This document shows, one piece after another, positions 27,050 to 62,624 of a DNA stretch of 64,000 nt. The notes under the pieces were generated by a model. The model was not told the DNA's origin. It made no database searches and worked only from the letters and a program-made list of their open reading frames with translations. The stretch's first letter is position 1; every line of letters starts with the position of its first letter. A program made the position numbers and the translations under genes. Source of the stretch: an uncultured Chryseobacterium sp. (lineage in GTDB: Bacteria > Bacteroidota > Bacteroidia > UBA10329); contig CAZATP010000013.1 of assembly GCA_964488095.1 (NCBI GenBank), forward strand, positions 3,576-67,575. Direction: 5' to 3'.

Positions 27050-28603
27050 ATGTCGAAAGGTGATGAACTGCATCGGTTGATCCACTCGCTGGAACTCAAC
27101 GAGAAACGTTATTTCAAGCTGCAGTCATCGCTGCAGAAGAAGAACAGCAACCTGACCCAGCTTTTCGATTTCCTCTGTACGGTCGAGGCGTATGACGAGG
27201 AGGCGGTGCGCTCCCAGTTCGCGGGAGAGAAGTTCCTCGACCAGCTGGCCGTCACGCAGAACCATCTCTATGAGTTCATCCTCAAGTCGATGCGGTCGTA
27301 CCACCTCAAGCGGTCCACTGAGTTCAAGCTGCAGGGCATGATGCAGGATACGCAGTTCCTGTTCGAGAAGGGACTCAAGGCCCAGGCAGAGACCGTGCTG
27401 CGCAGGCTGCGCAAGGTGGCCGAGAAGCACGACAACTTCCTTATCCTGCTGCAGGTGGTGGAGTATGAGACCAAGCTCATTGCCGAAGGTTTCTTCGTGG
27501 GCAAGGACGAATCTGACCTGGACGCACTCTCAGAGCAATACTATGAGCTGCTCGGGCTGTTGCAGAACGAGCGTGAGTATATGGACCTCCAGTTCAAGGT
27601 GTTCAACAACTACTACAAGATCGGTGTGGAGCGGAAGAACGAGGGCTATAAGACCAACGACCAGATCATCAACCAGTTCGCACTGCGGCACTACGACAAG
27701 GCGCTCACCTACCGGTCGAGGCTGGCCTTTCTCAACATCCACGCGCAGTATCAGAAAATCAACGGCAATTGGGAGGAGGCCTACCGCTATCGCAAGCAGC
27801 TGCTGGAGCTGGTGGGCGAACACTTTGGCACCTCGTTCGAGTCGGACACCACCAAGCGCTATTTCGTGGCCATCAACAATCTGGTGCCCATCTGCATGAA
27901 GTTGGGCAAGTATGACGAGGTGGCCAAGTTGCTCAATGAACTCGACACCATTGAGGAGCGCTCGCTGGCCACGCACTATTCCGTGGAGCTGGGACAGCGC
28001 ATCCGCATGCAGGGCATGATAGGCCGCCTGGCCCTTTACACCCGCCTCGGCATGCAACAGGAGGGTCTTGCCATGGCCGCAGACATCGTGGCCCGCAAGG
28101 ACGAGGTGGAGCATTATCCGCGCAGGTATGTGGTGATGCACCTCTATTTCAACCTGGCCTATTTCCTCTTCAGCGTGGGCAAATTCTCGGACGCCCTGCG
28201 CTATTGCAACAAGATCCTGAACGACAACGACATCCGCGACATCGAGGACCTCCACGCCTCCACGCGTCTGCTGGCCATGATGCTGCAGTATGAGCTGGGC
28301 CGCAGCGAACTGTTGGAATACCTCGTGCGCTCGGCACGCAGATATCTGGTGAAGCTGGAGGGGCTCTATCCGTTCGAATCCATCCTGCTGGCGTTCCTGC
28401 GCAGGTCGTCATCGCTCACCGCGGCCGAGACCAAACGCGAACTCACCAACCTGCGCAAGGAACTCGTGGCCGTGGGCTACGAGCCGGGCGACCGCAATGC
28501 CCTCTCCACGCTCGACCTGCTCTCGTGGGTCGATTCCAAGATCGAGGGCCGCCCCATGACCGATATTCTGAAAGCCAAGAATGAACTCAGACGAACCCCT
28601 TAG
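27050..28603 (+). CDS. hypothetical protein (alpha-helical; no recognised domain)
   Basis: 517-aa ORF with native G+C and codon periodicity. Its stop overlaps the hutH start by 23 nt. Confidence 0.5.
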   Translation: MSKGDELHRLIHSLELNEKRYFKLQSSLQKKNSNLTQLFDFLCTVEAYDEEAVRSQFAGEKFLDQLAVTQNHLYEFILKSMRSYHLKRSTEFKLQGMMQDTQFLFEKGLKAQAETVLRRLRKVAEKHDNFLILLQVVEYETKLIAEGFFVGKDESDLDALSEQYYELLGLLQNEREYMDLQFKVFNNYYKIGVERKNEGYKTNDQIINQFALRHYDKALTYRSRLAFLNIHAQYQKINGNWEEAYRYRKQLLELVGEHFGTSFESDTTKRYFVAINNLVPICMKLGKYDEVAKLLNELDTIEERSLATHYSVELGQRIRMQGMIGRLALYTRLGMQQEGLAMAADIVARKDEVEHYPRRYVVMHLYFNLAYFLFSVGKFSDALRYCNKILNDNDIRDIEDLHASTRLLAMMLQYELGRSELLEYLVRSARRYLVKLEGLYPFESILLAFLRRSSSLTAAETKRELTNLRKELVAVGYEPGDRNALSTLDLLSWVDSKIEGRPMTDILKAKNELRRTP

Positions 28604-30065
28604 CATCGAACAGTTGGAAGCGCTCCTCCAGGGCCGTTTCCGCATCTCCATCTCTGACCTTGATGCCCAGCGCATCGGGGCTGCCGTGGACTATCTGCAC
28701 GCCAAGGTGTCCGATGAGCATGCCGTCTATGGGGTGAACACCGGTTTCGGGTCGCTCCATAGCACACGCATCAAGGGCGATGACCTCGGTGCGCTGCAGG
28801 TCAATCTCATCCGGTCGCACGCCTGCGGCACCGGGCGCATGGTGCAGCCCGAGGTGATCCGGCTCATGCTCGCCCTCAAGGCCCAGAACATGCGCTATGG
28901 CAACAGCGGGGTGAGACTCACCACCGTGCAGCGCCTGCTCGACCATCTGGAGGCCGATGTGCTGCCGGTGATCTATGAGCAGGGTTCGCTCGGGGCCAGT
29001 GGCGACCTCGCCCCATTGGCCCACCTCAGCCTGCCGCTCCTCGGTGAGGGCATGGTGCATTACGGGGGGCAGATGAGGCCTGCGGCCGAGGTGATGGCCC
29101 AACTGGGCTGGCTGCCGCTCCAACTGGGCATGAAAGAGGGCCTGGCACTCCTCAACGGCACACAGTTCATGTCGGCCCACGGGGCCTATGCCCTCATCCA
29201 CGCCCAGCGCCTGGTGTGGCTGGCCGACCTCATCGGTTCCCTCTCGCTCGATGCGATAGGAGGGAGGATGGACCCCTTCGATGCCCTGGTGCAGCAGGTG
29301 CGGCCCCATCCCGGGCAGATCGCCTGTGCGGCCCGTGTGCGCCAGTTCCTTGATGGCAGCGAGCTCATGGCCCAGACCAAGCATCATGTGCAGGACCCCT
29401 ATTCCTTCCGGTGCATGCCACAGGTGCATGGCGCCTCGGCCGATGCCGTCACCTATGCCCGCAGCGTGGTCGAGCGCGAGATCAACTCCGTGTCCGACAA
29501 TCCCCTCATCTTCCCCGATGAGGACCGCATCATCTCCGCGGGCAATTTCCACGGCCAGCCCCTCGCCATCACCTTCGATTTCCTCGCCATCGCCCTGGCC
29601 GAACTGGCCAACATCTCCGAGCGCAGGACCTTCCAGCTCGTCTCGGGCCGCAACGGCCTGCCCGACTACCTCGTCAACAGCCCCGGCCTCAACTCCGGTT
29701 TCATGATCCCGCAATACACGGCCGCAGGCATCGTCAGTCAGAACAAACAGCTCTGCACCCCCGCCTCGGTCGACTCCATCGTCAGTTCCAACGGACAGGA
29801 GGACCACGTGAGCATGGGCGCCAATGCGGCCACCAAGCTGCTGCAGGTGGTGGACAATGTGTATCAGGTCCTCGCCATAGAGCTCTTCACAGCGGCACAG
29901 GCCCTCGAATTCCGTAGGCCCGCCAAAAGTTCACCCCTCATCGAGCAATGGATGCACAGCTATCGGCAGCTCGTTCCCTTCCTCACGGCCGATGTGCAGA
30001 TGCAGCCCCACATGCTCGCCTCCAAGCAGTTCCTGATGGAAGCGGAGGTGGAAGAGGGCATATAA
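28581..30065 (+). CDS. hutH: histidine ammonia-lyase (MIO-dependent aromatic amino-acid lyase family)
   Basis: GVNTGFGSL…, the MIO precursor triad in SLGASGDLAPLAHL, and a Ser-His (LIRSHACGTG) selectivity pair that favours HAL over TAL/PAL. Confidence 0.75.
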   Translation: MNSDEPLSIEQLEALLQGRFRISISDLDAQRIGAAVDYLHAKVSDEHAVYGVNTGFGSLHSTRIKGDDLGALQVNLIRSHACGTGRMVQPEVIRLMLALKAQNMRYGNSGVRLTTVQRLLDHLEADVLPVIYEQGSLGASGDLAPLAHLSLPLLGEGMVHYGGQMRPAAEVMAQLGWLPLQLGMKEGLALLNGTQFMSAHGAYALIHAQRLVWLADLIGSLSLDAIGGRMDPFDALVQQVRPHPGQIACAARVRQFLDGSELMAQTKHHVQDPYSFRCMPQVHGASADAVTYARSVVEREINSVSDNPLIFPDEDRIISAGNFHGQPLAITFDFLAIALAELANISERRTFQLVSGRNGLPDYLVNSPGLNSGFMIPQYTAAGIVSQNKQLCTPASVDSIVSSNGQEDHVSMGANAATKLLQVVDNVYQVLAIELFTAAQALEFRRPAKSSPLIEQWMHSYRQLVPFLTADVQMQPHMLASKQFLMEAEVEEGI

Positions 30066-30076
30066 ACACACAGGCG

Positions 30077-30144
30077 TGTAATACCCCCAAAAATTGAACA
30101 GTTAGCTTCTCTTAGCCAACTGTTCAATTTTTGGGGGTATTACA
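30077..30144. repeat. perfect 27-bp inverted repeat (arms 30077-30103 / 30118-30144, 14-nt loop)
   Basis: TGTAATACCCCCAAAAATTGAACAGTT …agcttctcttagcc… AACTGTTCAATTTTTGGGGGTATTACA, read directly. Lies 12 nt after the hutH stop, with no U-tract on either strand. Confidence 0.85.
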
Positions 30145-35110: not shown

Positions 35111-36337
35111 ATGATTACCAAGGTTAGAATCCGTAACTACAAGACGCTAGAGGATACCGAGCTGACGCTTGGAAGAATCAATGTCATTATCGGAGTGAAC
35201 GGAGCGGGGAAATCAAACTTGGCTGAAGCGATTGCCCTTGGGGTTGCAGGTGCCCAAGGTAAACTAGATTCGGAATATCTGACTGCAAGAGGCATTAGAC
35301 TCACTCACCCGAAGTTCATGCGTTCTGGATTTGGCCCCATCAACTCAGATCCTATCCGAATCGATTTGACCAACGACCAGAATACGTTGAAGCCTGTCAT
35401 TAACGTTGAATTGAACAATGACGGAAAACCGTATTCAAAATGGGTAAATCCCATATTGGATAGTGATAGAAAATTTCTTGAAAAGATGTTGGTGTCAATT
35501 TTCAAACCTGGGGAGCCCGATTTGTCTGAACACCCAGAAAATATTCATGAGGGCTTGTTGGATTTAAAGCGTACCGTTGTGGAGAAAAACAAGGATATGT
35601 TTGATGATCCAGAATTCGCTGATTTCATGAGATCAAGCCTTCCAGAATTCGTTAAAAATTTAGTGGAAAGAGGCAGTGAAATTGAGGATTTCGTGATTTA
35701 CAAACCAGAAGAAACGTTTTTGAGGAAATTCGATTCGCAAGGGCAGTTGGAGCCTCTTGGAATGCGAGGTGAAGGATTGCTAAAACTATTGACTGTTTTT
35801 AGCAGTGAGAAGCCAGAGATTTTGGGTGAGTTAAGGAAACATCTTAAGCTGTTTGACTGGTTTGAGGATATTAAACTAAAAGATCAGTTGATAGAAAAGG
35901 AAGTGTACTTCGATATTCAAGATAAATATCTCAATCCTGAATTGGGCTATTTTGACCAACGAAGTTCAAACGAGGGATTCCTCTATCTCGCGTTCTACAT
36001 AAGTCTGTTCCTGAGTGAAACTGCCCCGAAGAATTTTGCAATTGATAATGTTGATAATGCCCTTAACCCGAAACTCTGCACACGCTTAGTGAAGTTGCTG
36101 ACAACCTTGGCTAAGGAATATGGAAAGCAGGCCATTATTACCACTCACAATCCTGCAGTTCTAGATGGGCTTGATTTGAATGACCCAGAGCAAAAGTTGT
36201 TTGTCGTCAGTAGGAAGCGCAACGGTGCCACAAGAATATCAGAAGTGAAAGTGAAGCCTACATCTGATAAGTTGATGAAACTGTCTGAAATGTTCATGTC
36301 AGGAATGTTGGGCGGCCTTCCTAAGAATTTTGCGTGA
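35111..36337 (+). CDS. ABC/SMC/RecF/OLD-type P-loop ATPase (AAA_21/AAA_15-like), putative defence-system ATPase
   Basis: N-terminal IRNYKTL…INVIIGVNGAGKSNLAEAI is the Walker A. C-terminal …FAIDNVDNALNP… is Walker B-like with N in place of the catalytic E, followed by ITTHNP (H-loop). The gene is strongly AT-rich relative to its flanks. Confidence 0.75.
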   Translation: MITKVRIRNYKTLEDTELTLGRINVIIGVNGAGKSNLAEAIALGVAGAQGKLDSEYLTARGIRLTHPKFMRSGFGPINSDPIRIDLTNDQNTLKPVINVELNNDGKPYSKWVNPILDSDRKFLEKMLVSIFKPGEPDLSEHPENIHEGLLDLKRTVVEKNKDMFDDPEFADFMRSSLPEFVKNLVERGSEIEDFVIYKPEETFLRKFDSQGQLEPLGMRGEGLLKLLTVFSSEKPEILGELRKHLKLFDWFEDIKLKDQLIEKEVYFDIQDKYLNPELGYFDQRSSNEGFLYLAFYISLFLSETAPKNFAIDNVDNALNPKLCTRLVKLLTTLAKEYGKQAIITTHNPAVLDGLDLNDPEQKLFVVSRKRNGATRISEVKVKPTSDKLMKLSEMFMSGMLGGLPKNFA

Positions 36338-37011
36338 TGAATGTTGGCATTATCTCGGAAGGTTATACAGACCAGCTTGTTCTGGACAATATAATCATTG
36401 GGTATTTTGGCTCAGATGATTGTGTTGATGTGAAATATTTGCAGCCCCTTCGAGATGAAACTGACCTCTCAGCGCATGATGGCGGTGGTTGGGCGAACCT
36501 GATTGATTACTGTTCGGCTGAGGAGAGAATCAATTCTGCGTTGACTACAAGTGATTATATAGTGATTCATTTGGACACGGACATTCTCTCGAATCTGCAA
36601 ACTGATGTGACTGGGAATGAATCAGTGGAAGAGCTGGTCGAGAAGGCGAAGAATGTTTTGATAGAAAGAATAGCAGGCGACCTGTACAGCCAGAACGCGG
36701 AGAAGATTCTATTCGCTATTTCAGTTCACTCTATTGAGTGCTGGATATTGGTTTTGCTGGAGGACCAGCCGAAGAGGCGTAATCAAACTGTAAATTGTTT
36801 GGATAGAGTGAATAGAAAACTCAGTCCAAGGGGATATTCAATCGATCCGCGAAACAAAAACCATTTCAAGGACGAGTACCATGAACTTTCAGAGGAATTC
36901 TCTAACAAGAGAACACTGAAAAGAGTTAAGGCCAGCAATGATAGTTTGAGCATCTTCTTTGATGCCATGGACGAAAAGTGGTCGTCATTTGACTCTTGCG
37001 TAGATACCTAA
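36334..37011 (+). CDS. small partner protein of the ATPase; TOPRIM-like E…DxD pattern (DUF4276/RloB/AbiLii-like candidate)
   Basis: Start ATGATGAATG overlaps the ATPase stop. N-terminal VGIISEGYTDQ, then IVIHLDTDIL, resemble the TOPRIM Glu plus DxD arrangement. The gene shares the low G+C of the ATPase gene. Confidence 0.55.
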   Translation: MMNVGIISEGYTDQLVLDNIIIGYFGSDDCVDVKYLQPLRDETDLSAHDGGGWANLIDYCSAEERINSALTTSDYIVIHLDTDILSNLQTDVTGNESVEELVEKAKNVLIERIAGDLYSQNAEKILFAISVHSIECWILVLLEDQPKRRNQTVNCLDRVNRKLSPRGYSIDPRNKNHFKDEYHELSEEFSNKRTLKRVKASNDSLSIFFDAMDEKWSSFDSCVDT

Positions 37012-38236: not shown

Positions 38237-38384
38237 TTGTTGCGGTCATCTGCCGCATGGGCCAAAAAAAAACCGGAACAGTAAAGAAGTTGGGTGAAGC
38301 GGGATTTCCAGATTATTGCTTGCGGCAATGAGAACGCTGCGCTAAGTTGCTTCGGTTCCCGAAACAAGTTCGGGACAGGCTGTT

Positions 38385-38428
38385 CCTCCCTCGCAATGAC
38401 GGCCATCGGAGCGTCATTGCGAGGGAGG
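38385..38428. other. perfect 17-bp inverted repeat (extendable to ~20 bp with one G-U), 10-nt loop
   Basis: CCTCCCTCGCAATGACG gccatcggag CGTCATTGCGAGGGAGG, about 110 bp downstream of the stop of the minus-strand gene 38540-39535. No adjacent U-tract. It produces mirror-image spurious ORFs on both strands (LPRND…AVIAREE). Confidence 0.75.
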
Positions 38429-38539
38429 AACGAGGAGTGAAGCAATCTCAAACATTGCCCCAACATCTTTATCAGTCCGAAAAAAAACCGCACCCCGCGC
38501 CAAGGCGGGATGAGGTGGGTGGCGCTGTGCGCTGACCGC

Positions 38540-57794: not shown

Positions 57795-58562
57795 TCAGTC
57801 CCTGTAGGGAGGCTGCCCCACGAGTTCATCCACTCTGACGATGTTCCTTCCACTTTCGCGCAGTGCACGGATCACCTTCCTTAAGGCTTCAGGGGTGTGT
57901 GGATTGGTGTCGTGAAAGAGCAGCAGGCTGGCATTTCCCAGACGGGGCATCACCCTGTCAAGGATCTGCTGCTCGGATCTTGCCACCCCGTCCCGTGAGC
58001 GCAGGTCCCAACCGATCACGGCATCGCCCTCGGCCTCAACGGCCTTCATGATCTTGGGATTCATCACCCCGAACGGAGGACGGAAGAAACGCGGTTGTTT
58101 TCCGATGATCCTTGCCAAGCTGTTGCGCCCCTTGATGATCTCATCGCTCACCTGCGAGAGGGAGAACATCCCGAACCGATGCGTATGGTGGTAGGTATGA
58201 TTCCCGACCAGATGCCCTTCCTCCAGCATCTGTTCCACCAGTTCCGGATGAGCCTCTGCATGCCGGCCGATGCAGAAGAATCCCGCATGCACATGCTCTT
58301 CTCTCAGTACCCTCAGAATCTGTTGAGTATGAACAGGGTGTGGCCCATCATCGAAAGTGATAGACACATTTTTTCCGTTTCCCTTCCAGTAGGTTCTGCC
58401 AAAGAACTGCGATCCTATGTCGAACACGCCCCATCCCAGAACGATCACGTAGCAGAACGCCAAGGGAAGGAATGCCCAAGATCCCACGATTCCCATGGTC
58501 ACGGCCGGAACCAGTGCGGCAAGCACAGCCAGTGTGATCATGTTCAGTGAGCGGTAATTCAT
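57795..58562 (-). CDS. polysaccharide deacetylase (NodB-homology) family protein with N-terminal TM anchor
   Basis: …ITFDDGPHP…, …HTYHH…, and …LLLFHD… are NodB motifs. Confidence 0.75.
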   Translation of the reverse strand: MNYRSLNMITLAVLAALVPAVTMGIVGSWAFLPLAFCYVIVLGWGVFDIGSQFFGRTYWKGNGKNVSITFDDGPHPVHTQQILRVLREEHVHAGFFCIGRHAEAHPELVEQMLEEGHLVGNHTYHHTHRFGMFSLSQVSDEIIKGRNSLARIIGKQPRFFRPPFGVMNPKIMKAVEAEGDAVIGWDLRSRDGVARSEQQILDRVMPRLGNASLLLFHDTNPHTPEALRKVIRALRESGRNIVRVDELVGQPPYRD

Positions 58563-58565
58563 GGC

Positions 58566-59522
58566 TCAGGGACGCTTCACTAAAATGATGGAAGCCTGCG
58601 GGCCGAAGGCATGATGCACGGCCACATGGTTCAATTCCGGTCTTGCATTGATGTATTCAATGGCCAACCACATTCCGAAGCCCTGAGCGGTGAAATACTC
58701 ACCGCACAGATCCGTGTAGCAGACGTTCGGGGCTACTCCCAACGCGTTGGATGAGTTGGTAAGAATGAGGTCCGCATCGATGAACAGTTCCTTCAGTCGG
58801 TCGTGCTGGCCATCGTGCACCATTTCTATCCTTCCGACCTGAGCCACGGTCTGGGCCTTCGGCTCTGTTGATACATGGAAGAACGCGCTCCCTTCTCCCA
58901 AAACTGGCAGAGTATGGTGGAACTTTTCGGCCAACGCGGTGATCATGGCCTTCTCATCAACAGTCATTTCGTCAATGGCACCCACAAGCACCTGCTGCGC
59001 ATCGTCCTCGGCCAAGAGCAGTCGGGCATCCAAGAGGGCATAGGCCAATGACAGGTTGCCCTGCGTGTGGGTCATGTTATAGTTGCGGTTGCCCAAAAGG
59101 AGCGCCAGCTGCCCTGCGATGCTGTTGTGTGTGCTCTGAATGAACGCGGTGGGCGATTGTGTGCCCTCCGAGCTCCCATACATCGCCCCCACGAATTTCA
59201 GGGTGTCCTGAATGCAGCCCAGCCCCGTGCCTACGATGATGGCATCTGCCTCTGCGTCACCGGCCCTTCTCAAAGCCTCTACGCCAGTAGCCACGCCCAT
59301 CTTCAGCACATTGCTCATCCTGCGGATCTGCGCAGGCGACACGAAAGCCTTGTAGTCGGGGTGATGCAATGCAGCATCATCACCGATGGGCCGTAGGCTT
59401 TCAGTGGAATTCTCCTTGAGAAACGAGTCTTGGAAGGAGATGCAGACGGAGGAGTTGATGAACACCTTGTTGTTATTCGTTTTCTGTGAGAACTGATGGC
59501 AAAGGTCTGTAATAGCTTTCAC
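58566..59522 (-). CDS. beta-ketoacyl-synthase N-terminal-like domain protein (KS-like, probably non-canonical)
   Basis: 318 aa. Thiolase-fold-like segments (…IIVGTGLGCIQDT…, …GEGSAFFHV…) without a clear full KS catalytic triad. Confidence 0.55.
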   Translation of the reverse strand: MKAITDLCHQFSQKTNNNKVFINSSVCISFQDSFLKENSTESLRPIGDDAALHHPDYKAFVSPAQIRRMSNVLKMGVATGVEALRRAGDAEADAIIVGTGLGCIQDTLKFVGAMYGSSEGTQSPTAFIQSTHNSIAGQLALLLGNRNYNMTHTQGNLSLAYALLDARLLLAEDDAQQVLVGAIDEMTVDEKAMITALAEKFHHTLPVLGEGSAFFHVSTEPKAQTVAQVGRIEMVHDGQHDRLKELFIDADLILTNSSNALGVAPNVCYTDLCGEYFTAQGFGMWLAIEYINARPELNHVAVHHAFGPQASIILVKRP

Positions 59523-59688
59523 TGCCGATCCATATAGATGTCAAGGCACATGGGACACGGCTGCGCTCGCGATGTTTCAATGGTTCGGCTTGAGACACTG
59601 CTCAAACGGCCAGAGTTCATAGAGTCTGATATCCTGTCCTTTAGCACACTAAAAGTGCAAGGACAGAGGGACACGCCTACTCGTCCAT

Positions 59689-59732
59689 TGAAGTACTCGC
59701 CAATAACTGTCCAACGATTGGGGAGTACTTCA
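59689..59732. promoter_or_regulatory. 16-bp near-perfect inverted repeat (TGAAGTACTCGCCAAT / ATTGGGGAGTACTTCA, one mismatch) with 12-bp spacer
   Basis: Read directly, in the 480-bp AT-rich divergent intergenic region between the KS-like gene and the radical SAM gene. Confidence 0.5.
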
Positions 59733-60002
59733 GTATTATGCAAGTCGTTGGTGTGCAAATACTTATTGAGGCATCGGTGATGAGAACCAGGGTGAAGTGA
59801 ACGACCTGCAGCGATATGCCCCGGACGGCAGGTGTACAACTCATCTGTGTAAACCGTTTTTCCACACTTGAGCGGATCTAAATTCGGGGGCTGGAAGGCA
59901 TTGAATAGTATGATGTTGTCCCAATATATGATTCTGTTGGTACAGGTCATCCATGATACATCTCATTGATTCTTGCAACACCTCCGTCATTCTGAACTCC
60001 GC

Positions 60003-62183
60003 ATGCAGACCGGTCTGAGCCAACGTGTGCTCCTCATCGCCCCACCGTTCACGCAGTTGAACACGCCCTATCCCGCCACGGCCTACCTGAAGGGATATCT
60101 GAACACACAGGGCGTGCAGAGCGAGCATATGGACCTCGGCATAGCCACCATCCTGAGGTTGTTCTCCGAAAAGGGGCTGGAACAGATGTTCGCGGTGGCA
60201 GCAAAGGGCATATCTGAGGCCTCGCCCAATGCGCAGCGTATCTACGGGCTGCGAGAGGAGTATCTGCGCACCATCGGTCCGGTGATACGTTTCTTGCAGG
60301 AGGATGGTGCCACGCTCTCTCATCGCATCTGCGGAAGAGGATTCCTGCCCGAGGCTGCGAGGTTCGCGCAGCTCGAAGACCTCGAATGGGCATTCGGCAC
60401 CATGGGCATCCGAGATCAGGCAAGACACATGGCCACGCTCTATCTGGAGGACCTGAGCGACCTCATCGTGGAGGTGGTCGACCCGCATTTCGGATTCAGC
60501 CGCTATGCCGAGCGGCTCGGCCTGTCCGCCCATTCGTTCGATGAATTGCATGCTGCTCTCCGAGCTCCCGATAGCCTGATCACTGAGATGATGCTCGGAC
60601 TTCTTGAGGAGCAGCTGCAATCATCCCAACCTTCATTGGTCTGCATATCCGTGCCGTTTCCCGGTAATCTGTTCGCAGCGTTCAAATGCGGGCAGTGGCT
60701 GAAAACGCATTGCCCCAAGGTGAAAGTGGCCATGGGAGGTGGCTATCCGAACACCGAATTGCGCTCGCTCAAGGATACGAGGGTCTTCGACTTCGTGGAC
60801 TTCATCACCTTGGATGATGGTGAAACCCCGCTCATGCAGCTGCTGGCGCATTTGGATGGGAAATTGCCGTTCGAACAGCTCAAGCGGACATTCGTATCGG
60901 TGGGCGGAAGAGTGGCCTACTTCAACGGCAGCACCGTGTCCGATGTGAGACAGGAGAAGGTGGGCACGCCCGACTACACAGGCCTTCCGCTGCGGCAATA
61001 TCTGTCTGTTCTGGAGGTCACCAACCCCATGCACCGCCTGTGGAGTGATGGCAGGTGGAACAAGCTCACCATGGCCCATGGCTGCTATTGGGGCAAGTGC
61101 ACCTTCTGCGATGTGAGTCTGGATTACATCCAACGCTATGAGACGGGCTCGGCCACGCGCATCGTGGACCGCATGGAGGAACTCATTGCTCAGACCGGTG
61201 AGCGCGGGTTCCATTTTGTGGACGAGGCCGCACCGCCTGCACTCATGCGGTCAGTGGCGATGGAGATTCTCCGCAGAGGCCTTGTCGTTTCGTGGTGGAC
61301 GAACATCCGCTTCGAGAAGAGTTTTCATGCTGACCTGTGCCGACTGCTGGCCGCATCGGGCTGCATAGCCGTGTCGGGCGGCCTGGAGGTGGCGTCAGAC
61401 CGATTGCTGAAGCTCATTGCTAAGGGAGTTACGGTGGAGCAGGTGACGCGAGTCAACGATCATTTCAACCGGGCAGGCATCATGGTGCATGCCTATCTGA
61501 TGTATGGATTTCCAACGCAGACCGCGCAGGAGACGGTCGATTCGCTGGAGGTGGTGCGTCAGATGTTCGCGGCAGGGGTGCTGCAATCGGCCTTCTGGCA
61601 TCGTTTCGCCATGACGGCCCATAGTCCCGTGGGACTGAACCCCGATGCTTTTCAAGTGAACAGCCTTACAACTGAACCAGGCACCTTCGCCAACAACGAA
61701 CGGCCACATGTTGACCCGACCGGAGCCGACCATGACCGCTTTGCCGAGGGACTCAGACGTTCACTTTTCAATTACATGCATGCCATCGGACTGGATGAAC
61801 CGTTGCACAAGTGGTTCGATCACAAAGTGCCCAAGACCTCGCTGTCGCCCCATCTCATTGAAGGTTTTCTTGCCGAACCGGAGTTCCGTGAAACGAAACC
61901 CAACCATGTGCTGCTATGGACGGGGGGCGCATTGCACTATGACGCAAAGGCCAAAGTGCTTGTCATCAATACGATGCAGGACACGTTGGAAATACCTTTC
62001 GCTCCTGCGGAGGGCCGTTGGCTGGCCGAGATGCTGCCAGCCTTGGCGCCCAGGCAGAGCATTTCCTTCACCTATGCACACCTGCAACAAGCCCACGCGA
62101 AGCAGGGGTTGCGCAACTTTCCGCAGCTATGGTTCGGCAATGCGATGGAGGCTCTGAGGGAGGCAGGGCTGTTGGTGGTCTGA
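60003..62183 (+). CDS. B12-binding-domain radical SAM protein (class B-like) with long C-terminal extension
   Basis: N-terminal Rossmann-like B12-binding region (RVLLIAPPF…), a radical-SAM Cys cluster HGCYWGKCTFCDV (Cx4Cx2C), and …GGLEVASDRLL…. Confidence 0.7.
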   Translation: MQTGLSQRVLLIAPPFTQLNTPYPATAYLKGYLNTQGVQSEHMDLGIATILRLFSEKGLEQMFAVAAKGISEASPNAQRIYGLREEYLRTIGPVIRFLQEDGATLSHRICGRGFLPEAARFAQLEDLEWAFGTMGIRDQARHMATLYLEDLSDLIVEVVDPHFGFSRYAERLGLSAHSFDELHAALRAPDSLITEMMLGLLEEQLQSSQPSLVCISVPFPGNLFAAFKCGQWLKTHCPKVKVAMGGGYPNTELRSLKDTRVFDFVDFITLDDGETPLMQLLAHLDGKLPFEQLKRTFVSVGGRVAYFNGSTVSDVRQEKVGTPDYTGLPLRQYLSVLEVTNPMHRLWSDGRWNKLTMAHGCYWGKCTFCDVSLDYIQRYETGSATRIVDRMEELIAQTGERGFHFVDEAAPPALMRSVAMEILRRGLVVSWWTNIRFEKSFHADLCRLLAASGCIAVSGGLEVASDRLLKLIAKGVTVEQVTRVNDHFNRAGIMVHAYLMYGFPTQTAQETVDSLEVVRQMFAAGVLQSAFWHRFAMTAHSPVGLNPDAFQVNSLTTEPGTFANNERPHVDPTGADHDRFAEGLRRSLFNYMHAIGLDEPLHKWFDHKVPKTSLSPHLIEGFLAEPEFRETKPNHVLLWTGGALHYDAKAKVLVINTMQDTLEIPFAPAEGRWLAEMLPALAPRQSISFTYAHLQQAHAKQGLRNFPQLWFGNAMEALREAGLLVV

Positions 62184-62186
62184 GAC

Positions 62187-62624
62187 CTACTTGGAACGGA
62201 CCTCTTCTTGATTGGTCCGTTGAGCATGCTCGCGCATCTGCATTCTGATCCAATGCTCTGCACTGATGGGCGACTCAAAAAAACGGACGGGGAAGGGGCG
62301 AGCCGGCCCTTGTTCCATATACATGTTGCCGAGGGTTCTGCCCAAGGTGGAATTGGAGACGATGCCCACACCTACCACGGTGCCCACCACATCTTCTCCC
62401 GAACTCAAGTAATCGCGGGCCGCATCCGTGATCTTGGATATCAAGGAGATGTCATAGATGCCCCCTCTATATGGATGGTCGAGGTCCAACAAGGCATTTG
62501 TGGCCTTGATCCAATCCTTGGCCTCTTCAAGGTCAATAAGCGCTCCCGGCTTCAAACTGACGAGGAAGATGTTGCCCGGAAGCATTTCAATCCTGGTCGT
62601 TCGTGTTTCGCTGCTCTTGTACAT
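62187..62624 (-). CDS. hypothetical protein (145 aa)
   Basis: ORF with native G+C. Convergent with the radical SAM gene (4-bp gap). No motif recognised. Confidence 0.4.
   Translation of the reverse strand: MYKSSETRTTRIEMLPGNIFLVSLKPGALIDLEEAKDWIKATNALLDLDHPYRGGIYDISLISKITDAARDYLSSGEDVVGTVVGVGIVSNSTLGRTLGNMYMEQGPARPFPVRFFESPISAEHWIRMQMREHAQRTNQEEVRSK

What the first reader, a model, noticed from the sequence alone, without database searches (positions are those of the whole stretch)
57795..62183. KS-like protein + polysaccharide deacetylase divergent from a B12-binding radical SAM enzyme across an AT-rich 450-bp spacer holding a 16-bp inverted repeat
The B12-radical SAM enzyme has a long C-terminal extension and a Cx4Cx2C cluster and is not next to any obvious RiPP precursor, cofactor or antibiotic genes. 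Its divergent neighbours are a truncated KS-N-terminal-like protein and a membrane-anchored NodB deacetylase. The shared 5' region (59523-60002) is visibly AT-richer than the genes and contains TGAAGTACTCGCCAAT-N12-ATTGGGGAGTACTTCA, a plausible dimeric regulator operator or RNA hairpin. Class-B radical SAM methylases with unknown substrates are a frequent source of new chemistry.
Basis: partly seen in the sequence, partly recalled or inferred. Interest (0 to 1): 0.55.

Follow-up and report, generated by a model that had tools for sequence, protein, structure and literature searches.

The report
Chance neighbours plus an orphan radical-SAM gene
Three real but unrelated things sit side by side here: a two-gene fragment of a pigment (flexirubin/aryl-polyene) pathway, a 44-bp palindrome most likely left by a jumping gene, and a very conserved radical-SAM enzyme of unknown function found across Bacteroidota, so the locus is not a new gene cluster.

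Summary
The three ORFs, the roughly 10% AT-richer spacer and the 16-bp inverted repeat (15/16, loop 12) are all present.

The implied functional unit is not supported. The radical SAM (rSAM) gene belongs to a very conserved family, 57-66% identical across Bacteroidota orders and present in at least 593 species genomes. It has no conserved neighbours. None of 80 species loci has the KS-like or deacetylase gene within 10 kb. An 89%-identical relative has methylmalonyl-CoA mutase upstream instead.

The KS-like protein lacks the catalytic Cys and the C-terminal half, so it is a chain-length factor (ApeC-like). Together with the deacetylase it forms the canonical CLF-deacetylase(-LolA) module of flexirubin/aryl-polyene clusters. 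Here that module is detached from the rest of the cluster.

The spacer is strain-variable. A strain with a 98%-identical rSAM protein has a different 1-kb spacer carrying a 106-aa gene, of which the window keeps only 21 codons, starting 3 bp after the repeat.

The repeat arms align with the terminal repeats of IS3-family insertion sequences, and a second such palindrome lies at 30077-30144. No riboswitch was found.

The rSAM is structurally cobalamin-rSAM-like (TsrM, TokK, OxsB). Its CX4CX2C motif is also found in OxsB. It has a weakly RRE-like C-terminal domain. Its substrate is unknown.

The parts
57795..58562 (-). NodB-type polysaccharide deacetylase, the flexirubin/aryl-polyene cluster type, with an N-terminal membrane segment.
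   Evidence: PF01522, E 3e-31. It lies directly downstream of the CLF in Owenweeksia L086, L085 and L088, and is 36% identical to the Owenweeksia cluster deacetylase.
58566..59465 (-). Chain-length-factor-like ketosynthase (ApeC-like), catalytically inert. The ORF could extend to the GTG at 59522.
   Evidence: PF13723. [quoted passage not shown] The alignment with true KS proteins shows Asn in place of the catalytic Cys and the His-His half missing.
59466..60002 (.). Strain-variable, AT-richer intergenic spacer that is also a synteny breakpoint.
   Evidence: GC 0.46-0.50. Only 59466-59530 and 59735-59803 match the strain L084, whose rSAM protein is 98% identical. No Rfam family, no terminator, and one promoter-like site at chance level. 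The 143-aa ORF in the spacer has GC3 0.53 against 0.66-0.73 in genes, and the gene caller did not call it.
59689..59732 (.). 44-bp palindrome P1 made of two IS3-family right-end-type terminal repeats (TGAAGTACTC[G/C]CCAAT).
   Evidence: The same palindrome abuts an IS left end in metagenome contig L090. The arms align with the ends of an annotated IS3-family element, L155.
59735..59800 (+). Remnant (last 21 codons plus stop) of a 106-aa gene that is intact in strain L084.
   Evidence: IMQVVGVQILIEASVMRTRVK* here against IMQAGGVQMPIEASVMRSRAE* in L084. blastn gives 84% over 69 nt.
60003..62183 (+). Orphan rSAM conserved across Bacteroidota. Layout: a Rossmann-type (B12-binding-like) N-domain carrying a roughly 160-aa helical insert, a CX4CX2C radical SAM barrel, and a roughly 170-aa C-terminal domain.
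   Evidence: AF2 model with pLDDT 74.8. Foldseek top hits are TsrM, TokK, OxsB and AprD4. The C-terminal domain model has pLDDT 85.5 and weak RRE-like hits.
62187..62624 (-). DUF7793 gene convergent with the rSAM. It is present in L084 but absent in the 89% relative L081.
   Evidence: PF25056; contexts.
30077..30144 (.). Second IS3-end-derived palindrome P2. It has 31-nt arms that are 97% complementary, of the left-end type (TGTAATACCCCCAAAAATTGAAC).

Best explanation
The locus is an accidental, lineage-specific juxtaposition at a rearrangement-prone spot. It is not a functional unit.

(1) The KS-like gene is a catalytically dead chain-length factor. By homology it should pair with an elongating ketosynthase encoded elsewhere to set polyene length, as shown for ApeC with ApeO. 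With the translationally coupled NodB-type deacetylase it forms the conserved CLF-deacetylase module of flexirubin/aryl-polyene pigment clusters. Here the module is detached from the rest of the pathway and sits upstream of ftsY.

(2) The rSAM gene is a stand-alone, strongly conserved gene found across Bacteroidota. Inferred mechanism: the CX4CX2C [4Fe-4S] cluster cleaves SAM reductively, and a Rossmann domain of the cobalamin-rSAM type supports the chemistry on a substrate encoded elsewhere. That substrate may be a peptide or protein held by the RRE-like C-terminal domain. The substrate and the reaction are unknown.

(3) The 16-bp inverted repeat is a pair of IS3-family terminal repeats, a mini-MITE or IS relic. 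It marks an insertion/deletion event that destroyed a 106-aa gene still present in a sister strain. It is not a conserved operator or riboswitch.

Shown here: the gene identities, the lack of co-conservation, the strain variability of the spacer, and the homology of the repeat arms to IS ends. Inferred: the order of the insertion and deletion events, the cobalamin use of the rSAM, and its substrate class.
For: No co-conservation. tblastn with the KS-like and deacetylase proteins finds nothing within 10 kb of the rSAM in 80 species loci spanning Saprospiraceae, Chitinophagaceae, Flavobacteriales, Cytophagales, Sphingobacteriales and Bacteroidales. All-vs-all ORF clustering finds no neighbour family beyond genus-level synteny. 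No conserved small ORF flanks the gene. The relatives at 89%, 81% and 72% identity have other neighbours. The 89% one keeps the downstream synteny but has methylmalonyl-CoA mutase upstream.

CLF-deacetylase module. The order CLF, deacetylase, LolA occurs inside complete aryl-polyene-type clusters in Owenweeksia (L086) and two Flavobacteriales MAGs. The same order is listed for a Chryseobacterium flexirubin cluster (10.1101/2022.03.19.484977). ApeC acts as a chain length factor in a heterocomplex with ApeO (PMC8253772). The catalytic Cys and the His-His half are absent. Of the Owenweeksia cluster proteins, only the CLF, the deacetylase and a distant aromatic lyase find matches in the window.

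Spacer. It differs from strain L084, whose rSAM protein is 98% identical, except for 65 and 69 nt. The 106-aa gene remnant starts 3 bp after the repeat.

IS origin. The two-arm pattern has a single match in 241 million metagenome records (L090). There it sits 1 nt from an IS end and about 70 nt upstream of an orfA start. The orfA N-terminus matches transposases of annotated IS3-family elements on Flavobacterium plasmids. All arms align with those element ends. A second palindrome of the left-end type lies at 30077-30144.

No riboswitch. Rfam finds none in the spacer, the whole window or 16 homologous loci.

rSAM fold. The top PDB structural hits are the cobalamin rSAMs TsrM, TokK and OxsB, and AprD4. 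OxsB also has CX4CX2C (PMC9204698).
Against: Genome-level co-occurrence of the rSAM with aryl-polyene genes (as opposed to adjacency) was not tested.

In one Flavobacteriales MAG the rSAM and the aryl-polyene cluster lie about 34 kb apart on the same contig. Loose regional linkage in this clade therefore cannot be excluded.

The window contains no transposase, and I saw no target-site duplications around either palindrome, so mobility is unproven.

The IS link rests on one metagenome contig plus one decayed plasmid IS.

The RRE-like assignment is weak: Foldseek E 0.3-1, and no Pfam hit.
Confidence: 0.75

Rival explanations
1. The three genes form a functional unit. The B12-rSAM would tailor (for example C-methylate) a polyketide or lipid made with the KS-like protein and deacetylase, with divergent transcription controlled at the palindrome.
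For: The genes are physically adjacent and divergent in the window and in the strain with a 98%-identical rSAM protein. Class-B rSAMs often tailor natural products. The rSAM and an aryl-polyene cluster share a contig, 34 kb apart, in one MAG.
Against: None of 80 loci shows co-localisation, and the 89%, 81% and 72% relatives have other neighbours. The CLF-deacetylase pair sits in aryl-polyene clusters that contain no rSAM. The rSAM is also found in lineages such as Prolixibacteraceae, Marinilabiliaceae and Cloacimonadota-like relatives, in unrelated contexts. The palindrome is absent from the sister strain.
Confidence: 0.05
2. The inverted repeat is a regulatory element serving one of the divergent genes: either an operator for a dimeric transcription factor or a structured 5'-UTR hairpin.
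For: It is a near-perfect 16-bp palindrome in a divergent promoter region, and its predicted hairpin is stable (z = -5.4).
Against: It is not conserved in the closest strain, although that strain has the same flanking genes. It is absent upstream of rSAM or CLF orthologs in about 90 other loci. It has no Rfam match and no U-tract. The identical sequence occurs next to an IS in an unrelated AT-rich genome, and the arms align with IS3 ends. An IS-derived palindrome could still affect expression incidentally.
Confidence: 0.1
3. The rSAM is a RiPP maturase that acts on a precursor peptide encoded in the spacer or nearby.
For: The best, though sub-threshold, NCBIfam match is TIGR03975, a RiPP C-methyltransferase. 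The C-terminal domain's top structural hits are RRE domains: PbtF, ThcOx, TruD/LynD, PqqD and McbB.
Against: No conserved small ORF lies next to the gene in 80 loci. The spacer ORFs have non-coding composition and are strain-specific. The very high conservation and single-gene context are atypical for RiPP clusters.
Confidence: 0.05

Closest known systems
ApeC-type chain length factor plus polysaccharide deacetylase module of flexirubin/aryl-polyene (APE) clusters
   Same: It has the PF13723 KS-N-terminal-like fold, no catalytic Cys, and a size near 300 aa. The deacetylase follows immediately, as in the Owenweeksia, Chryseobacterium and Flavobacteriales clusters.
   Different: The partner KS, ACP, KR, DH, LolA, glycosyltransferase and MMPL genes are missing from the neighbourhood and from the whole 64-kb window. 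The pair is followed by ftsY.
Cobalamin-dependent (class B) radical SAM enzymes with solved structures: TsrM, TokK, OxsB; and the Cbl-independent AprD4
   Same: It shares the Rossmann N-domain plus rSAM barrel architecture and these are its top Foldseek hits. OxsB shares the CX4CX2C motif.
   Different: Sequence identity is only 12-18% and TM-scores are 0.32-0.51. The protein has a roughly 160-aa helical insert within the Rossmann domain and a distinct roughly 170-aa C-terminal domain. It meets no curated subfamily cutoff. It is a stand-alone conserved gene rather than part of a biosynthetic cluster.
IS3-family insertion sequence terminal inverted repeats, and MITE-like derivatives of them
   Same: The arms begin 5'-TG and align with both ends of an annotated IS3-family element (L155) and with the IS end in L090. 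The palindrome lies at an indel boundary in an intergenic region.
   Different: It is only 44 bp (P1) or 68 bp (P2), consisting of two repeats and a short loop. The window has no transposase, and no target-site duplication was recognised.

Membership tests
Class B (cobalamin-dependent) radical SAM | Three-Cys [4Fe-4S]/SAM motif in a radical SAM barrel. | tested here: met
   PF04055, E 5e-12. C-X4-C-X2-C is invariant in 46 homologs. The same variant occurs in OxsB.
Class B (cobalamin-dependent) radical SAM | N-terminal Rossmann-type cobalamin-binding domain. | tested here: inconclusive
   The fold-level matches to TsrM, TokK and OxsB span the N-domain. PF02310 is detected only in some homologs and not in the window protein. 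AprD4 shows that this fold does not guarantee cobalamin binding.
Class B (cobalamin-dependent) radical SAM | Actual cobalamin binding and dependence. | not testable with these tools
   Needs purified protein or a B12-dependent phenotype. No cobalamin riboswitch was found in the window, the spacer or 16 loci.
Curated B12-rSAM subfamilies (TIGR03975 RiPP C-methyltransferase, PhpK, HpnJ, BchE, BzaD, ladderane rSAM and others) | Score at or above the NCBIfam curated cutoff. | tested here: not met
   The best scores are 83 bits against a cutoff of 282 (TIGR03975) and 78 against 600 (PhpK). All 19 hits are far below their cutoffs.
APE/flexirubin chain length factor (ApeC-like) | KS N-terminal-like domain without a catalytic Cys. 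| tested here: met
   PF13723. Asn sits at the Cys column and the His-His region is absent.
APE/flexirubin chain length factor (ApeC-like) | Encoded within a cluster that has a partner KS, ACP, KR and DH. | tested here: not met
   tblastn with the Owenweeksia cluster proteins finds only the CLF, the deacetylase and a distant aromatic lyase in the window. The rest of the genome was not available.
IS3-family end-derived element (MITE or solo-IR pair) | Terminal repeats homologous to the ends of an IS3-family element, starting 5'-TG. | tested here: met
   Alignment A4. L155 is annotated as an IS3 family transposase. L090 shows the IS end and orfA start.
IS3-family end-derived element (MITE or solo-IR pair) | Flanking target-site duplication and multiple dispersed copies. 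| tested here: inconclusive
   No direct repeats are evident by eye around 59689-59732 or 30077-30144. There is one copy of each type in the 64 kb. The whole genome was not available.
Cobalamin riboswitch | Rfam RF00174-type match upstream of the gene. | tested here: not met
   No match even at E <= 10 in 59300-60200. None at gathering threshold in the window or in 16 homologous loci.
RRE (PqqD-like) peptide-recognition domain | Three-stranded sheet plus three-helix winged-helix fold with a significant match. | tested here: inconclusive
   At least seven distinct RRE-containing PDB entries are among the top 50 hits (ranks 1-5, 10, 19, 24, 30, 31, 39, 43, 48). However, E is 0.3-2.6 and TM is at most 0.57, and there is no Pfam hit.

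The most novel reading that the evidence does not exclude
The rSAM represents an uncharacterised, Bacteroidota-wide housekeeping family of cobalamin-type radical SAM enzymes. Its RRE-like C-terminal domain would recruit a conserved peptide or protein encoded elsewhere, and the enzyme would install a post-translational modification not yet described.
Probability: 0.2. Interest if true: 0.65.

Novelty: new member of a known kind. Interest (0 to 1): 0.25.

Why it matters
As a locus it does not matter much. The apparent cluster is a by-product of rearrangement, and the palindrome is mobile-DNA debris, so it should not be mined as a biosynthetic gene cluster.

What remains of value is the rSAM family itself. 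It is about 722 aa long and present in at least 593 species representatives. It is 57-66% identical across orders, always stands alone, and has no curated family, solved structure or informative name.

An enzyme that conserved and that widespread in a major phylum probably performs a core modification. Identifying its substrate would add a new function to the cobalamin-type rSAM class. This window offers no special handle on that question.

Tried and rejected
- **Rfam scans.** I scanned the spacer at E <= 10, and the whole window and 16 homologous loci at gathering threshold. Only tRNAs and sub-threshold noise appeared.
- **Promoter and terminator scan of the spacer.** It gave nothing above chance. 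A regex for the Bacteroidota -7 motif TAnnTTTG found no exact match.
- **The 143-aa ORF in the spacer.** It has no Pfam or NCBIfam hit, non-coding GC3, is absent from the sister strain and was not called by the gene caller. I rejected it as a gene.
- **PDB sequence searches with the rSAM and its profile.** The only result was a 29-residue local match (E 0.29) around the Cys motif of queuine lyase 6P78. I judged this uninformative.
- **Names for ten distant family representatives.** All were generic.
- **Contexts of distant homologs at 36% and 28% identity.** There was no shared operon partner.
- **ABC ATPase neighbours seen in 12 loci.** These are scattered paralogs at random distances, so I rejected them as a B12-transport link.
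- **Viral-contig scan with one repeat arm.** It gave 60 single matches, in line with my rough chance estimate, and the two I read are coding sequence. The two-arm pattern gave none.
- **Fuzzy matches of the arm in L017, L018 and L029.** They are single and non-palindromic, consistent with chance.
- **blastn of the L090 IS end against plasmids.** No match.
- **Search for transposase remnants in the window.** None found.
- **Literature searches for a characterised member of the rSAM family.** Nothing found.

Full report
**1. Observation**

All the described features are present.
- The deacetylase ORF (57795-58562, minus strand) matches PF01522 at E 3e-31. It carries the TFDDG and HTYHH motifs and a hydrophobic N-terminus.
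- The KS-like ORF (58566-59522, minus strand) matches only KS N-terminal models: PF13723 at 8e-12 and PF00109 at 1e-4.
- The rSAM ORF (59973-62183, plus strand) matches PF04055 and has the cluster motif C-YWGK-C-TF-C, i.e. CX4CX2C.

Two start codons need correcting.
- The rSAM most likely starts at the ATG at 60003, giving 726 aa. That is how it is called on the identical contig L089 and in the sister strain L084.
- The KS-like gene most likely starts at the GTG at 59465, giving 299 aa. Its homologs are 294-299 aa and the tblastn match begins there.

The spacer is therefore 480-537 bp. Its GC is 0.46-0.50, against 0.55-0.62 in the flanking genes.

The inverted repeat lies at 59689-59704 / 59717-59732, is 15/16 complementary and has a 12-nt loop. 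Only four loci in the 64-kb window reach 15/16 with a loop of 40 nt or less. My estimate of the chance expectation is about 0.03, so the repeat is not a random feature.

**2. The rSAM gene is a stand-alone, highly conserved Bacteroidota gene**

- A search of 5.8 billion proteins returned 8000 scored hits. The best 120 are 63-98% identical over 93-99% of the length, almost all about 722 aa, and carry only generic names.
Of the matches, 593 were confirmed relatives. The best 80 loci span Saprospiraceae, Chitinophagaceae, Flavobacteriales, Cytophagales (Dyadobacter, Spirosoma), Sphingobacteriales (Pedobacter), Prolixibacteraceae, Marinilabiliaceae and Bacteroidales, at 56-74% identity (best segment).
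- The 50%-clustered library holds 832 representatives at E <= 1e-30, down to about 28% identity. One of these is a Cloacimonadota MAG protein.
- tblastn with the window's KS-like and deacetylase proteins found neither within 10 kb of the rSAM in any of the 80 loci.
- Clustering all ORFs of at least 90 aa found no neighbour family beyond within-genus synteny. Clustering small ORFs of 20-95 aa within 700 bp found no conserved peptide gene.
- The 89%-identical relative keeps the downstream synteny (FMN oxidoreductase, DUF4920, lumazine synthase and so on) but has methylmalonyl-CoA mutase upstream. The 81% and 72% relatives differ on both sides.

The spacer is thus a synteny breakpoint. The adjacency to the KS-like and deacetylase genes is seen only in the window's own sequence and in the strain whose rSAM protein is 98% identical.

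**3. The KS-like and deacetylase genes are a detached module of a flexirubin/aryl-polyene cluster**

- In Owenweeksia hongkongensis the homolog lies in a full aryl-polyene-type cluster. Its order is aromatic lyase, KR, KS, ACP, LpxL-type acyltransferase, ApeP-like dehydratase, thioesterase, KS, ACP, KS, CLF, deacetylase, LolA, ApeI-like, glycosyltransferase, with an MMPL gene nearby.
- The same CLF-deacetylase-LolA order appears in two Flavobacteriales MAGs. It is also listed for a Chryseobacterium flexirubin cluster (10.1101/2022.03.19.484977).
- ApeC is described as a chain length factor that forms a heterocomplex with the elongating KS ApeO (PMC8253772).
- An alignment with three true KS proteins shows Asn at the catalytic Cys column and no His-His half.
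- The KS-like stop and the deacetylase start are 3 nt apart, which suggests co-translation.
- In the window, only the CLF, the deacetylase and a distant stand-alone aromatic lyase (28581-30065, 35% identical) match the Owenweeksia cluster proteins.

The rest of the pathway is therefore either elsewhere in the genome or lost.

**4. The spacer is strain-variable and the repeat is IS-derived**

The sister strain (L084) has nearly identical flanking genes (rSAM protein 98% identical). Even so, only 59466-59530 (95%) and 59735-59803 (84%) of the spacer match it. L084 has a 1020-bp spacer containing a 106-aa gene. The window retains only that gene's last 21 codons (IMQVVGVQILIEASVMRTRVK*), beginning 3 bp after the right arm of the repeat.

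A two-arm pattern scan of 241 million metagenome records found a single match, in contig L090, which is AT-rich and unrelated.
- There the palindrome lies 1 nt from the sequence GTGTAATACTCCCCAAAAATTGGACCATTGGTTAAGTT.
- That sequence lies 36 nt upstream of an ORF starting MKRTRRKFSSTFKATVAIE, which runs off the contig end.
- The palindrome also appears to truncate a secreted-protein ORF (the truncation is my reading of the sequence).

The 20-residue N-terminus matches annotated transposases on Flavobacterium plasmids at 80% identity. In NZ_CP092371.1 that gene is the orfA of an element whose orfB is annotated 'IS3 family transposase'. The plasmid element's left end (TATAATACCCTTAAAAATTTGGACCAAAAGTTAAGTT) and its right end both align with the L090 end and with the window arms.

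The window holds a second palindrome of the left-end type at 30077-30144, with 31-nt arms that are 97% complementary.

The window has no transposase remnant, and I saw no target-site duplication. I therefore call these IS3-end-derived palindromes, meaning relics or mini-MITEs, rather than proven mobile elements.

No Rfam family, terminator or above-chance promoter is found in the spacer. The 143-aa ORF that covers it has non-coding composition.

**5. What the rSAM looks like**

- Every NCBIfam hit is far below its cutoff. The best are the RiPP C-methyltransferase TIGR03975 (83 bits against 282) and PhpK (78 against 600).
- There is no PDB sequence relative.
- An AF2 model (pLDDT 74.8, pTM 0.73) shows four parts:
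  - a Rossmann domain whose strands are split by a helical insert at about residues 45-208;
  - a low-confidence but invariant linker, NPMHRLWSDGRWNKLTMAHGCYWGKCTFCD;
  - the rSAM barrel;
  - a C-terminal domain.
- The Foldseek top hits are TsrM, TokK, OxsB and AprD4 (E 5e-10 to 1.5e-5, 12-18% identity). OxsB also uses CX4CX2C (PMC9204698), so that motif is not novel within the class.
- The C-terminal domain modelled alone (pLDDT 85.5) gives only weak matches. These are nevertheless dominated by RiPP recognition elements: PbtF, ThcOx, TruD/LynD, PqqD and McbB (E 0.3-2.6). Pfam finds nothing.
- This hints at a peptide or protein substrate but does not show it. Cobalamin use is inferred from the fold only.

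**6. Verdict**

The functional-unit and operator interpretations are not supported.

The locus combines three things: a known-type pigment-pathway module, an IS-derived palindrome at an indel and synteny breakpoint, and an orphan member of the cobalamin-type rSAM architecture.

Interest in the locus is low. The rSAM family is a reasonable target for functional genomics in its own right, but nothing in this window points to its substrate.

Noticed in passing
window 30077-30144: A 68-bp near-perfect palindrome with 31-nt arms (TGTAATACCCCCAAAAATTGAACAGTTAGCT) lies 12 bp after the stop of the aromatic lyase gene. Its arms match the left end of the IS3-type element in L090 and L155. It is the sister element to the repeat in the finding.
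   Followed up: partly
window 38381-38430: A long GC-rich palindrome, GTTCCTCCCTCGCAATGACG...CGTCATTGCGAGGGAGGAAC, is followed by GAGGAGTGAAGCAATCTC. From memory it resembles a repeat element common in Bacteroidota intergenic regions. This was not checked.
   Followed up: no
window 35111-37011 (+): Adjacent AAA_21/AAA_15 ATPase (408 aa) and RloB-like (225 aa) genes form a pair typical of candidate anti-phage or abortive-infection systems.
   Followed up: no
window 28581-30065 (+): A stand-alone aromatic amino-acid ammonia-lyase (PF00221, E 3e-188) is 35% identical to the lyase of the Owenweeksia aryl-polyene cluster. The adjacent genes scanned are not hut genes: a TPR protein lies upstream and a tRNA downstream. 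It could be HutH or a pigment starter-unit enzyme.
   Followed up: partly
L084 9599-9919 (+), and window 59735-59800: The sister strain carries an intact 106-aa gene with no Pfam hit in the spacer. The window has only its last 21 codons. The DUF7793 gene at 62187-62624 is also an insertion relative to the 89% relative L081. Both flanks of the rSAM are therefore indel-prone.
   Followed up: partly
window 59445-59457 and 59976-59988: A 13-nt inverted repeat (12/13 complementary) brackets the whole spacer, 518 nt apart. It lies inside the 5' end of the KS-like gene and just upstream of the rSAM ATG. It is probably chance: my estimate is about 0.15 expected in this region.
   Followed up: no
window 61680-62180 (rSAM residues about 560-726): The C-terminal domain is predicted with high confidence as four strands followed by helices. 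Its best, but non-significant, PDB matches are RiPP recognition elements.
   Followed up: partly
L090 1-430: The IS3-type element appears to interrupt a signal-peptide-bearing ORF that looks PKD-like to my eye. The palindrome plus a third arm gives a nested three-arm arrangement: arm A 97-127, arm B 129-159 and arm C 152-170.
   Followed up: partly
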